A stretch of 64,000 nucleotides of DNA from Escherichia coli (GTDB lineage Bacteria; Pseudomonadota; Gammaproteobacteria; Enterobacterales; Enterobacteriaceae): NCBI RefSeq assembly GCF_041248615.1, contig NZ_CP158426.1; one strand, given 5' to 3'. Of the stretch, positions 35,187-35,794 are shown in pieces. A program made the position numbers and the translations under genes. The number at the start of each line of letters is the position of its first letter. Positions within the stretch are counted from its first letter, which is position 1. The notes under the pieces were generated by a model that did no database searches, was not told the DNA's origin, and worked only from the letters and a program-made list of their open reading frames with translations.

Positions 35187-35794
35187 GATTGTCTGCTCCC
35201 CTGTCTTGTTATAGGAGCAGTATTCAGGAATAAAAACATTCATTAAAAGAATTAGTCGTTATCGCACAGATGATTTTATTCTTAGCAAAAAAGCGGCAAA
35301 GGAAAGATTAAATATGCAATTACACCCACTCTGACAATTCAGTAAGTTACTGCACTTCATTTTTATTAATGCATAAACAAGCAGAACATAATGTCTTTTA
35401 TTTTATTAACAGCAATACATATAATGAAATCATTATATTCACATTGCATATATAACTGTATCATTCTCAATCAACCACATAATACATTCACATAATGTAT
35501 ATAATCCATATTTGTGCCTAGAACATATTTTTAATATGTAATTAATTGACAAACTAAATCACATCTAAATACAATATATAAAACAAAATAACTATACAAA
35601 CCAAACACACAAACACTTAACATATGAACTACATAAAAGATTACGCAGTCGTATCCCCGTACCTGAAAGCCCCTTATTTTTCAGCTATCAGTAATTTTTA
35701 ACACTTAAAAATTAGCATCTGTCTGTGCCAGAGATTACGTCTCTGCGGGCATCGTTGTGCTTGTAGTATAATAAATAAAATGGAGTGTCATTAA

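What the first reader, a model, noticed from the sequence alone, without database searches (positions are those of the whole stretch)
35187..35794. 608-bp AT-rich divergent control region between tauA and yaiS with imperfect direct repeats and an A/C-rich tract
This is an unusually long, strongly AT-rich intergenic region between divergently transcribed tauABCD and yaiSPXO. It contains two related ~20-bp elements, attcacattgcatatataac (35437-35456) and attcacataatgtatataat (35486-35506), 49 bp apart, and an A/C-rich low-complexity tract aaacaaaataactatacaaaccaaacacacaaacac (35581-35617). The composition suggests H-NS silencing and the repeats could be sites for the sulfur-starvation regulators of tau (CysB/Cbl) or for an unknown yaiS regulator; an sRNA is also possible.
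Basis: partly seen in the sequence, partly recalled or inferred. Interest (0 to 1): 0.3.

Follow-up and report, generated by a model that had tools for sequence, protein, structure and literature searches.

The report
Silenced AT-rich tauA–yaiS control region
This is the already-described AT-rich spacer between the E. coli taurine operon and the accessory yaiSPXO gene cluster: a known activator-dependent tauA promoter next to an H-NS-bound "promoter island"; the two "repeats" are chance, but the A/C-rich tract is part of a genuinely conserved promoter-plus-leader block.

Summary
The 608-bp spacer (35187-35794) between tauA (-) and yaiS (+) is real and AT-rich: 30% GC overall, 21% in the centre. 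The homologous K-12 spacer is already published as an H-NS-bound "promoter island". It is also a genomic-SELEX RNA polymerase site listing the same TTGACA-18-TACAAT promoter found here at 35546-35575.

- **tau control region.** It occupies only the tauA-proximal ~140-175 bp. The TSS is 26 nt upstream of ATG (window 35212, from K-12 Cappable-seq). Genomes lacking yaiSPXO keep a diverged homologue of this part only.
- **The two ~20-bp repeats.** They match 15/20, no better than chance (86% of shuffles equal them). They lie in a fast-diverging segment, at -225 to -293 from the tauA TSS.
- **The A/C tract.** It is real. It is the 3' part of a 77-nt G-free run, the longest in the 64 kb. With the promoter it forms an 81-nt block only 2.5-3.7% diverged, against 16-20% in its neighbours.
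- **No support.** Nothing supports an sRNA, a sigma-54 promoter or a small-protein gene here. A 25-codon upstream ORF whose frame is kept in all alleles is only weakly supported.

Verdict: ordinary and largely known, with low interest. The function of the conserved leader is unresolved.

The parts
35184..35186 (-). tauA start codon (ATG)
   Evidence: RefSeq annotation of the identical sequence in strain 2012C-4221 and of K-12.
35187..35247 (-). tauA leader and core promoter: TSS at 35212, inferred -10 AATACT (complement of 35219-35224), weak -35 TTTAAT/TTAATG (about 35241-35247)
   Evidence: Cappable-seq places a K-12 TSS at U00096.2 384430(+), 26 nt upstream of the tauA ATG at 384456 (PMC4782308 supplement). 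The sequence from the ATG to the -10 hexamer is nearly identical in all alleles. The hexamers are inferred from spacing.
35280..35324 (-). Inferred Cbl (and overlapping CysB) activator-binding region of the tauA promoter, -68 to -112 from the TSS
   Evidence: The footprint position is recalled from the abstract of van der Ploeg et al. 1997 (paper not held) and applied to the TSS. The segment 35187-35326 is only 2.9% diverged between E. coli haplotypes. It is the part with residual similarity to the tauA upstream region of yaiSPXO-less genomes.
35341..35640 (.). AT-rich core, equivalent to the published K-12 promoter island 383994_309; presumed H-NS nucleation and spreading region
   Evidence: Coordinates were mapped by hand from PMC3661553 Table 1 through alignment A1. 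GC falls to 21%. This core has the highest density of -10-like hexamers in the 64 kb: 13 per 300 nt against a median of 1.
35437..35456 (+). It overlaps the window equivalent (TTGAGA-16-TGCAAT, minus strand, 35443-35470) of the K-12 'constitutive' tauA-direction promoter-like site TTGAGA-16-TACAAT
   Evidence: not above chance. One search gives the Shimada hexamers, which I located by eye in K-12 and the window. The copy is variable in the K-type allele and in E. whittamii.
35486..35505 (+).
   Evidence: It is variable in E. whittamii (GCA at 35495-35497, TA at 35504-35505) and at 35505 in other alleles.
35546..35575 (+). P1, near-consensus sigma-70 promoter TTGACA-18-TACAAT directed at yaiS; predicted TSS about 35582
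   Evidence: It is the only 11/12 consensus match on either strand of the whole 64-kb window. Both hexamers are invariant in 10 alleles of 4 haplotypes, including E. whittamii. Shimada 2014 list the same hexamers for yaiS. No TSS is seen here in K-12 laboratory data.
35549..35625 (+). From about 35582 it would be the first ~44 nt of a P1 transcript
   Evidence: Longest G-free run in the window. The block 35546-35626 is 2.5-3.7% diverged against 16-20% in the flanking segments. C minus G is 16 per 78 nt, the 98.8th percentile of the window.
35624..35701 (+). 25-codon upstream ORF (MNYIKDYAVVSPYLKAPYFSAISNF), candidate only
   Evidence: Start, stop and length are kept in all 10 alleles, including a compensated +1/-1 frameshift in the K type. 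There is no amino-acid conservation: variable sites by codon position are 12:9:7. The chance of retention under random placement of the same events is 0.0096, but 0.13 if start and stop are taken as fixed. There is no Shine-Dalgarno sequence.
35729..35745 (+). Conserved inverted repeat CAGAGAT-TAC-GTCTCTG (7-bp stem, 3-nt loop)
   Evidence: Read and predicted in the consensus fold. The one change (A to G in the B2-type alleles) keeps a G-U pair. There is no two-sided covariation. Function unknown.
35751..35797 (+). yaiS-proximal conserved block: TATAAT at 35767-35772 (candidate promoter P2, no recognisable -35), GGAG Shine-Dalgarno at 35782-35785, GTG start at 35795
   Evidence: 0-6.8% diverged across haplotypes. 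The RpoS-holoenzyme SELEX peak at K-12 383868 maps about here by my hand conversion of coordinates (PMC5493296).

Best explanation
The spacer is a composite of two unrelated control regions, joined where an accessory gene cluster sits next to tauA.

1. **tauABCD promoter (about 35187-35330).** This is the known sulfate-starvation promoter. The TSS is at 35212, the core hexamers are weak, and the Cbl/CysB activator region lies upstream.
2. **yaiSPXO side (about 35340-35794).** The rest travels with the variably present yaiSPXO cluster: a PIG-L deacetylase, a GT2 glycosyltransferase, a hexapeptide acetyltransferase and the YaiO outer-membrane barrel. Its AT-rich core is packed with -10-like hexamers. 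It binds RNA polymerase but is coated by H-NS, so yaiS stays silent in laboratory conditions. This is the published 'promoter island' state.
3. **One element under purifying selection.** Inside this core, the near-consensus promoter P1 (TTGACA-18-TACAAT) and the G-free A/C-rich segment that follows it are conserved. I take P1 to be the real yaiS promoter, used when H-NS silencing is lifted. It would give a ~212-nt leader that begins unstructured and G-poor.
4. **The repeats.** The two ~20-bp 'repeats' are chance similarity between TA-rich, -10-like sequence, not regulator sites.

**Shown:** the boundaries, composition and statistics, conservation pattern, island polymorphism, tauA TSS, and the K-12 literature on H-NS and RNA polymerase binding.
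**Inferred:** that this allele is H-NS-bound, that P1 is functional, the position of the Cbl site, and any role for the leader.
For: - **Boundaries and annotation:**
- **AT-richness:**
- **K-12 homologue in the literature:** it is one of 78 promoter islands, H-NS-bound in all ChIP studies and called foreign by three predictors (PMC3661553). It is an RpoD-holoenzyme SELEX site with an HNS flag, listing TTGACA-18-TACAAT for yaiS (PMC3946193). There is also an RpoS SELEX peak (PMC5493296).
- **P1 and hexamer density:** P1 is the only 11/12 match in 64 kb, and the -10-like density is the maximum for the window.
- **Island polymorphism:** E. coli RMDEC465 and the E. albertii type strain have tauA next to frmR with no yaiSPXO. 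They keep only a diverged homologue of the tauA-proximal ~140 bp. E. whittamii has yaiSPXO with a 607-bp spacer.
- **tauA TSS:** 26 nt upstream of the ATG, with no other tauA-direction TSS in the spacer. There is no yaiS-direction TSS at P1 or P2 in K-12.
- **Conservation mosaic:** three conserved blocks, with variable segments 16-20% diverged.
- **Repeat statistics:**
- **Cluster domains:**
Against: - No H-NS, RNA polymerase or TSS data exist for this allele, which is only 87% identical to K-12 across the spacer.
- P1 has never been seen to fire. The hexamers in Shimada 2014 appear to have been assigned from the sequence under the SELEX peak rather than mapped as a start site (my reading of the table).
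- A second, fully conserved TATAAT lies 23 nt before the yaiS GTG and could be the real promoter, which would make the long leader irrelevant.
- Conservation of the 81-nt block extends 44 nt past the predicted TSS. A bare core promoter does not explain that.
- The upstream CysB footprints of the tau promoter could not be checked, because van der Ploeg 1997 is not held. A far-upstream CysB site near repeat copy 1 is therefore not formally excluded.
- My simple scan finds only 3 full promoter-like sites (at least 9/12) in the spacer, no more than in shuffles. The 'island' character here rests on -10-like density and on the K-12 PlatProm result.
Confidence: 0.7

Rival explanations
1. The conserved P1 + G-free leader (+ 25-codon uORF) is a post-initiation control device. 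The unstructured, C>G leader would load Rho (or need ribosome coverage through the uORF), so that transcripts escaping H-NS are terminated before yaiS unless the leader is translated or bound.
For: - Conservation runs from -35 to +44 of P1, not just over the core promoter.
- The run is 77 nt G-free, with C minus G in the 98.8th percentile.
- The predicted leader is about 212 nt long.
- The uORF frame is retained in 10 alleles, including a compensated frameshift.
- From general knowledge, Rho is known to reinforce silencing of H-NS-bound foreign DNA.
Against: - No transcript from P1 has been observed.
- The uORF has no Shine-Dalgarno sequence, and its peptide is not conserved (12:9:7 by codon position).
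- Retention probability is only 0.13 once start and stop are taken as given.
- yaiS does not appear in the held 3'-end and Rho supplements of Adams 2021.
- The leader fold is not better than shuffles (z = -1.4) and shows no covariation.
Confidence: 0.15
2. The two ~20-bp elements are binding sites for a regulator: far-upstream CysB or Cbl sites of tau, or an unknown yaiS regulator.
For: - They exist, share ATTCACAT and TATATAA, and are 49 bp (about 4.7 helical turns) apart.
- Copy 2 is nearly invariant within E. coli.
- CysB is reported to occupy multiple sites on the tau promoter (recalled abstract of van der Ploeg 1997).
Against: - The pair is not above chance.
- Copy 1 differs at 3-4 of 20 positions in the K type and E. 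whittamii, and copy 2 at 5 of 20 in E. whittamii. Similarity between copies drifts to 14/20 and 13/20, by my count.
- They lie at -225 to -293 from the tauA TSS, beyond the Cbl site.
- They are absent from genomes that lack yaiSPXO yet keep tauABCD.
- They sit in the 16-20% diverged segment.
Confidence: 0.06
3. The spacer encodes its own product: an sRNA, or a small hydrophobic protein on the minus strand of the A/C tract (MLSVCVFGLYSYFVLYIVFRCDLVCQLITY, complement of 35531-35623).
For: - The minus-strand ORF starts at a conserved ATG (the CATATG palindrome) and its first 28 residues are well conserved.
- The 35-aa K-12 form exists in databases as 'hypothetical protein', for example A7ZIB0_ECO24.
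Against: - Variable sites fall 7:2:2 on codon positions 1:2:3, the opposite of purifying selection on a protein.
- The C-terminus varies between 30, 35, 48 and 63 aa.
- There is no Shine-Dalgarno sequence.
- A G/T-rich strand gives stop-poor, 'hydrophobic' ORFs by composition alone.
- Cappable-seq shows no tauA-direction TSS between K-12 383338 and 384430.
- There is no Rfam match and no terminator.
Confidence: 0.04

Closest known systems
Promoter islands of E. coli K-12 (Shavkunov/Panyukov/Ozoline): island 383994_309, yaiS/tauA
   Same: It is the homologous locus. It shares the same position between the same genes, the same AT-rich core and the same TTGACA-18-TACAAT site. It also shares the association with foreign genes, H-NS occupancy and lack of productive transcription in K-12.
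   Different: This allele is 13% diverged from K-12 overall and 20% in two segments, with a 9-nt indel. PlatProm scoring, H-NS binding and short-oligo synthesis have not been measured for it. The published work treats the island as a whole and does not single out the conserved 81-nt block.
Xenogeneic silencing of AT-rich, horizontally acquired DNA by H-NS
   Same: The spacer is an AT-rich upstream region of a variably present, lower-GC gene cluster. It contains strong but silent promoters, and some strains carry an IS1 insertion in the AT core.
   Different: No counter-silencer is known for yaiSPXO. Only one weak match to the TCGATAAATT high-affinity motif was found (35540, two or fewer mismatches).
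Cbl/CysB-dependent sulfate-starvation promoters (tauA, ssuE)
   Same: The tauA-proximal ~140 bp is that promoter: the TSS is 26 nt before the ATG, the -35 is weak, and the upstream activator region is conserved.
   Different: It accounts for less than a quarter of the spacer.
Switched intergenic regions / horizontal regulatory transfer in E. coli (own knowledge: Oren et al. 2014; Thorpe et al. 2018)
   Same: Flanking genes are close (window vs K-12: yaiS 1.3% and yaiP 1.4% nucleotide difference), while the spacer's variable segments differ by 20%, more than 4-fold degenerate sites of either flank (3.5-13.5%).
   Different: This is not a wholesale replacement. Three blocks stay conserved, so it is a mosaic rather than an unrelated alternative promoter region. 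No recombination test was run.
Leader-peptide / Rho-dependent attenuators such as tnaC-tnaA (own knowledge)
   Same: There is a short upstream ORF (25 codons; tnaC has 24) in a long leader, next to a C-rich, G-poor stretch.
   Different: There is no evidence of transcription, translation or Rho dependence. The peptide is not conserved, whereas TnaC's key residues are. This is a resemblance only.

Membership tests
Promoter island (Panyukov & Ozoline 2013) | At least 8 PlatProm-predicted start points per 100-bp sliding window, sustained for at least 300 bp | not testable with these tools
   PlatProm is not available. The K-12 homologue is on the published list (definition). As a proxy, -10-like hexamer density peaks here for the whole 64 kb (13 per 300 nt against a median of 1). 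Full -35/-10 matches are not enriched over shuffles.
Promoter island (Panyukov & Ozoline 2013) | Binds RNA polymerase but gives little or no productive transcription | tested here: met
   This holds for K-12 only. RpoD and RpoS holoenzyme SELEX peaks fall in the spacer. Yet Cappable-seq shows no tauA-direction TSS in the island, and Kim 2012 shows no yaiS-direction TSS at P1 or P2.
Promoter island (Panyukov & Ozoline 2013) | Occupied by H-NS | not testable with these tools
   The literature reports this for K-12: 'A: according to all studies' and the HNS flag. This allele has the same 30% GC but has not been measured.
Promoter island (Panyukov & Ozoline 2013) | Associated with horizontally acquired genes | tested here: met
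   yaiSPXO is absent from E. coli RMDEC465 and E. albertii NBRC 107761 and replaced by other genes in E. coli SCPM-O-B-8794. It is present in E. whittamii. Of 5426 complete E. coli genomes, 1061 have no match to the spacer.
Cbl/CysB-activated tauA promoter | Transcription start upstream of tauA, with activator sites at -112 to -68 | tested here: met
   The TSS is 26 nt upstream of the ATG, giving window 35212. The -68 to -112 interval (35280-35324) falls in a block only 2.9% diverged. The footprint coordinates themselves are recalled, not re-read.
   The repeats are at -225 to -244 and -274 to -293 from the TSS. They are absent from island-less genomes that retain tauABCD.
Direct-repeat regulator sites | Repeat similarity exceeds chance and is maintained across relatives | tested here: not met
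   86% and 27% of shuffles equal or beat the pair. Both copies vary, with no co-variation.
Small RNA gene | Own promoter plus terminator, conserved structure or a family match | tested here: not met
   There is no Rfam match at E<=1 and no terminator-like site. The leader fold has z = -1.4 with 0 compensatory pairs.
Sigma-54 promoter of yaiS (listed in RegulonDB per PMC3118216) | TGGCAC-N5-TTGCW upstream of the gene | tested here: not met
   No match with two or fewer mismatches lies in the spacer. The best site, TGGCGCGTCGCTTGCT at 35893-35908, is inside the yaiS ORF.
Protein-coding small ORF (minus strand, 30 aa) | Excess of third-position (synonymous) variation and a stable length | tested here: not met
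   Variable sites fall 7:2:2 by codon position, and the length is 30, 35, 48 or 63 aa.
Translated regulatory upstream ORF (plus strand, 25 codons) | Reading frame kept beyond chance; ribosome-binding signal; evidence of translation | tested here: inconclusive
   The frame is kept in 10 of 10 alleles, with a compensated frameshift. P is 0.0096, or 0.13 with start and stop fixed. There is no Shine-Dalgarno sequence, and no translation data were available.

The most novel reading that the evidence does not exclude
The 81-nt block conserved from E. coli to E. whittamii comprises P1, a 77-nt G-free leader start, and the frame-conserved 25-codon upstream ORF that begins at its 3' edge. In this reading it is a second, post-initiation layer of control for the yaiSPXO surface-polysaccharide-like cluster. 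The G-poor, unstructured leader would recruit Rho unless it is covered by ribosomes translating the upstream ORF. yaiS expression would then need both relief of H-NS silencing and a translation-dependent signal.
Probability: 0.1. Interest if true: 0.45.

Novelty: already known. Interest (0 to 1): 0.2.

Why it matters
For annotation, the region should be filed as two things: the tauA sulfate-starvation promoter, and the H-NS-silenced upstream region of an accessory gene cluster. It should not be filed as a new repeat-based regulatory element or an sRNA locus.

The one item worth a bench experiment is small. A strongly conserved near-consensus promoter and G-free leader sit inside an otherwise fast-diverging 'promoter island'. 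That suggests not all of such an island is evolutionary noise. It also gives a handle on how the uncharacterised yaiSPXO cluster (deacetylase, glycosyltransferase, acetyltransferase, outer-membrane barrel) is switched on.

Tried and rejected
- **Rfam:** permissive scan of 34900-36200 gave nothing.
- **Sigma-54 promoter in the spacer:** none found; the best site is intragenic.
- **A/C tract as an anti-Shine-Dalgarno partner of the yaiS initiation region.** The consensus fold suggested this. The duplex energy of -11.4 kcal/mol is matched by 33% of shuffles, and other spacer segments do better. Rejected.
- **A/C tract as a GcvB-type C/A-rich sRNA target.** The duplex with K-12 GcvB is no better than shuffles or window background. 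No support, although unconstrained duplexfold is a crude test.
- **Minus-strand hydrophobic 30-aa ORF:** rejected on codon-position pattern and variable length.
- **H-NS high-affinity motif TCGATAAATT:** a single hit with two or fewer mismatches. Uninformative.
- **Papers not held:** van der Ploeg 1997 and Thomason 2015. The CysB footprints and the dRNA-seq TSS list could therefore not be read.
- **Adams 2021 supplements:** no mention of yaiS or tauA.
- **First genome contigs pattern (yaiS-proximal block):** nothing found. The second pattern (tauA leader) found 3 species.
- **Cappable-seq minus-strand (yaiS-direction) entries:** these lie in the part of the file that was cut when stored.

Full report
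**Identity and boundaries**

The window is E. coli. The spacer is 100% identical to strain 2012C-4221 and present, at 80-100% identity, in 4365 of 5426 complete genomes. RefSeq annotation of the identical sequence and of K-12 puts the tauA start at the complement of 35184-35186 and the yaiS GTG at 35795. The 608-bp interval 35187-35794 is therefore exactly intergenic and divergently arranged.

GC is 30% overall and 21% at 35400-35599, against about 55% in tauABCD.

Downstream of yaiS lie yaiP, an acetyltransferase (yaiX) and yaiO. By Pfam these four are a PIG-L deacetylase, a GT2 glycosyltransferase, a hexapeptide-repeat transferase and the YaiO beta-barrel.

The two elements exist at 35437-35456 and 35486-35505. 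They match 15/20, or 17/22 when extended, with 49-nt spacing.

In dinucleotide-preserving shuffles of the spacer, an equal or better direct pair turns up in 86% of cases at length 20 and 27% at length 22. They are not more than chance.

In a 10-allele alignment covering four haplotypes (window type, B2 type, K-12 type, E. whittamii), both copies vary and do not co-vary. Both are built from -10-like TA-rich hexamers. Copy 1 overlaps the window equivalent of the tauA-direction 'constitutive promoter' TTGAGA-16-TACAAT of Shimada 2014. Copy 2 ends in TATAAT.

**The A/C tract**

It is real and larger than described. 35549-35625 is a 77-nt run without a single G, the longest G-free or C-free run in the 64 kb; the next is 38 nt. 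It is reached by 0.1% of spacer shuffles and 5.7% of AT-core shuffles.

It starts one base after the G of a TTGACA hexamer. TTGACA-18-TACAAT at 35546-35575 is the only 11/12 sigma-70 consensus match on either strand of the whole window.

**What is already published**

- The homologous K-12 spacer is one of the 78 'promoter islands' of Panyukov & Ozoline: 383994_309, yaiS(-)/tauA(+). It is called foreign by three predictors and H-NS-bound 'according to all studies' (PMC3661553; definition). By my hand mapping through the alignment, it corresponds to window 35341-35640. That interval contains both repeats, P1 and the A/C tract.
- Shimada 2014 found an RpoD-holoenzyme SELEX peak in this spacer, flagged it HNS, and listed TTGACA-18-TACAAT as the yaiS promoter (PMC3946193).
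- An RpoS-holoenzyme peak maps close to the yaiS-proximal TATAAT (PMC5493296).
- In my own proxy, the density of -10-like hexamers peaks here for the entire window: 13 per 300 nt against a median of 1.

**Where the tau control region ends**

Cappable-seq gives a K-12 TSS at U00096.2 384430(+), 26 nt before the tauA ATG. That is window 35212. There is no other tauA-direction TSS between 383338 and 384430 (PMC4782308 supplement).

With the Cbl footprint at -112 to -68 (my recollection of the van der Ploeg 1997 abstract; the paper is not held), the activator site is about 35280-35324. This lies inside a block only 2.9% diverged among E. coli haplotypes.

Comparative evidence agrees:

- E. coli RMDEC465 and the E. 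albertii type strain have no yaiSPXO at all, and tauA abuts frmR.
- E. coli SCPM-O-B-8794 has a response-regulator-like gene and a 513-codon ORF there instead.
- All three share high identity only up to 38 nt before the ATG, that is, up to the inferred -10.
- Beyond that they carry a diverged but alignable version of the next ~100 bp, including the TTAG-A7-GGCAA-GG stretch. After that the sequences are unrelated.

So tau regulation needs at most ~200 bp. The repeats, at -225 to -293, and everything to their right belong to the yaiSPXO side.

**Conservation mosaic**

Window vs K-12 divergence by segment:

| Segment | Window vs K-12 |
|---|---|
| 35187-35326 | 2.9% |
| 35327-35545 | 20.2% |
| 35546-35626 | 3.7% |
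| 35627-35750 | 20.3% |
| 35751-35794 | 0% |

- Window vs E. whittamii gives 10.8% for the first segment and 16.5% for the second.
- The remaining three segments give 2.5%, 16.1% and 6.8%.
- Four-fold degenerate sites differ by 13.5% in tauA and 3.5-4.1% in yaiS and yaiP for window vs K-12.
- The variable segments therefore evolve at or above the neutral rate, while the P1 + G-free block is under clear constraint.
- Conservation runs from the -35 hexamer to +44 of the predicted transcript and ends at a CATATG.

**What the conserved block might do**

A K-12 TSS survey found no yaiS-direction start at P1 or at the proximal TATAAT. It found only a 2-read start inside tauA (PMC3415461 supplement). 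This fits silencing, but leaves P1 unproven.

I tested several ideas:

- **Minus-strand 30-aa hydrophobic ORF across the tract.** It is conserved but shows 7:2:2 variation by codon position and a variable C-terminus. Its stop-poor, hydrophobic character follows from G/T-rich composition. Rejected.
- **Plus-strand 25-codon ORF (35624-35701).** It keeps start, stop and length in all 10 alleles despite 28 variable columns and a compensated +1/-1 frameshift in the K type. The chance of this is 0.0096 under random placement of the same events, but 0.13 if start and stop are taken as fixed. It has no Shine-Dalgarno sequence and no peptide conservation. Weak.
- **Pairing of the tract with the yaiS initiation region or with GcvB.** Neither is better than shuffles.
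- **Rho loading.** The G-poor, C>G, unstructured character fits a Rho loading site, but there are no data.
- **Other classes.** There is no Rfam family, no terminator and no sigma-54 promoter in the spacer.

**Conclusion**

The finding describes a real, long, AT-rich divergent spacer whose nature is already in the literature. It is the Cbl/CysB-dependent tauA promoter abutting an H-NS-bound promoter island that heads an accessory, silent gene cluster.

The repeat, regulator and sRNA parts do not. The A/C tract is the visible tail of the only strongly conserved element of the island: a near-consensus promoter and its G-free leader. The role of that leader remains open.

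Noticed in passing
window 35225-39100; L004, L006, L007, L008: yaiSPXO is a presence/absence polymorphism. E. coli RMDEC465 and E. albertii NBRC 107761 have tauA directly next to frmR (305-bp spacer in RMDEC465). E. coli SCPM-O-B-8794 carries a 209-aa response-regulator-like gene and a 513-codon ORF at the same place. E. whittamii has the full cluster.
   Followed up: partly
window 35219-35330 vs L004 7039-7200, L006, L007: The tauA upstream regulatory region exists in two deeply diverged versions (roughly 60% alike by eye). 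The switch point lies exactly at the inferred -10 hexamer, 38 nt before the ATG. E. whittamii is a hybrid of the two at 35226-35243.
   Followed up: partly
window 35327-35545 and 35627-35750: Window-type and K-12-type spacers differ by 20% in these segments. The adjacent yaiS and yaiP differ by only 1.3-1.4% (3.5-4.1% at four-fold sites). This suggests ancient spacer haplotypes reshuffled by recombination, or accelerated change of AT-rich DNA.
   Followed up: partly
L005 about 1725-2486 (equivalent to window about 35400): Some strains (for example 1000C-3 and NZ_OZ409596.1) carry IS1 inserted in the AT-rich core, with a 9-bp target duplication CATTATTTC. In 1000C-3 the transposase gene is on the same strand as yaiS. 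It could act as a mobile promoter or disrupt silencing.
   Followed up: partly
window 35893-35908 (+): The best sigma-54 consensus match near here (TGGCGCGTCGCTTGCT, 1 mismatch) lies about 100 nt inside the yaiS ORF, in the codons for GCGASLA. It is TTGC in the window and K-12 but TAGC in the B2 type and E. whittamii. It may be the origin of the RegulonDB 'sigma-54 yaiS promoter' entry.
   Followed up: partly
window 35795-36466 vs L002 6616-7173: YaiS is 223 aa here and in E. whittamii. The K-12 protein (185 aa) is 99% identical but stops early, so K-12 yaiS looks C-terminally truncated. The small protein gene ykiC lies antisense over the truncated end. NCBI's pipeline marks yaiS as partial or a pseudogene in most strains looked at.
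   Followed up: partly
window about 35168 (+), inside tauA: Kim 2012 list a 2-read yaiS-direction TSS at K-12 384474(-), 18 nt inside tauA and antisense to it, 634 nt upstream of yaiS. Cappable-seq also lists a tauA-direction TSS at K-12 383338, inside yaiS and antisense to it.
   Followed up: no
window 35729-35745: The inverted repeat CAGAGAT-TAC-GTCTCTG is conserved, invariant apart from one A-to-G change that keeps a G-U pair. It sits in an otherwise variable stretch, 50 nt before the yaiS start. Function unknown.
   Followed up: partly
window 35421-35436: The palindrome ATAATGA-AA-TCATTAT resembles a Fur box with the spacing one base short. In K-12 it reads ATAATA-AAAC-TATTAT, so the arms change together (G to A with C to T).
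   Followed up: no
window 18900-19200 and 30400-30600: These are other AT-rich spots. 18900-19200 has the second-highest -10-like hexamer density in the window (12 per 300 nt) and long G-free runs. 30400-30600, between hemB and the ehaB-like autotransporter gene, drops to 24% GC and is strongly diverged from K-12.
   Followed up: no
yaiO, window 38233-39006: yaiO is widely used in the literature as an E. coli-specific PCR marker (many hits). At least some complete E. coli genomes (for example RMDEC465) lack the whole cluster, and 1061 of 5426 have no match to the adjacent spacer.
   Followed up: no
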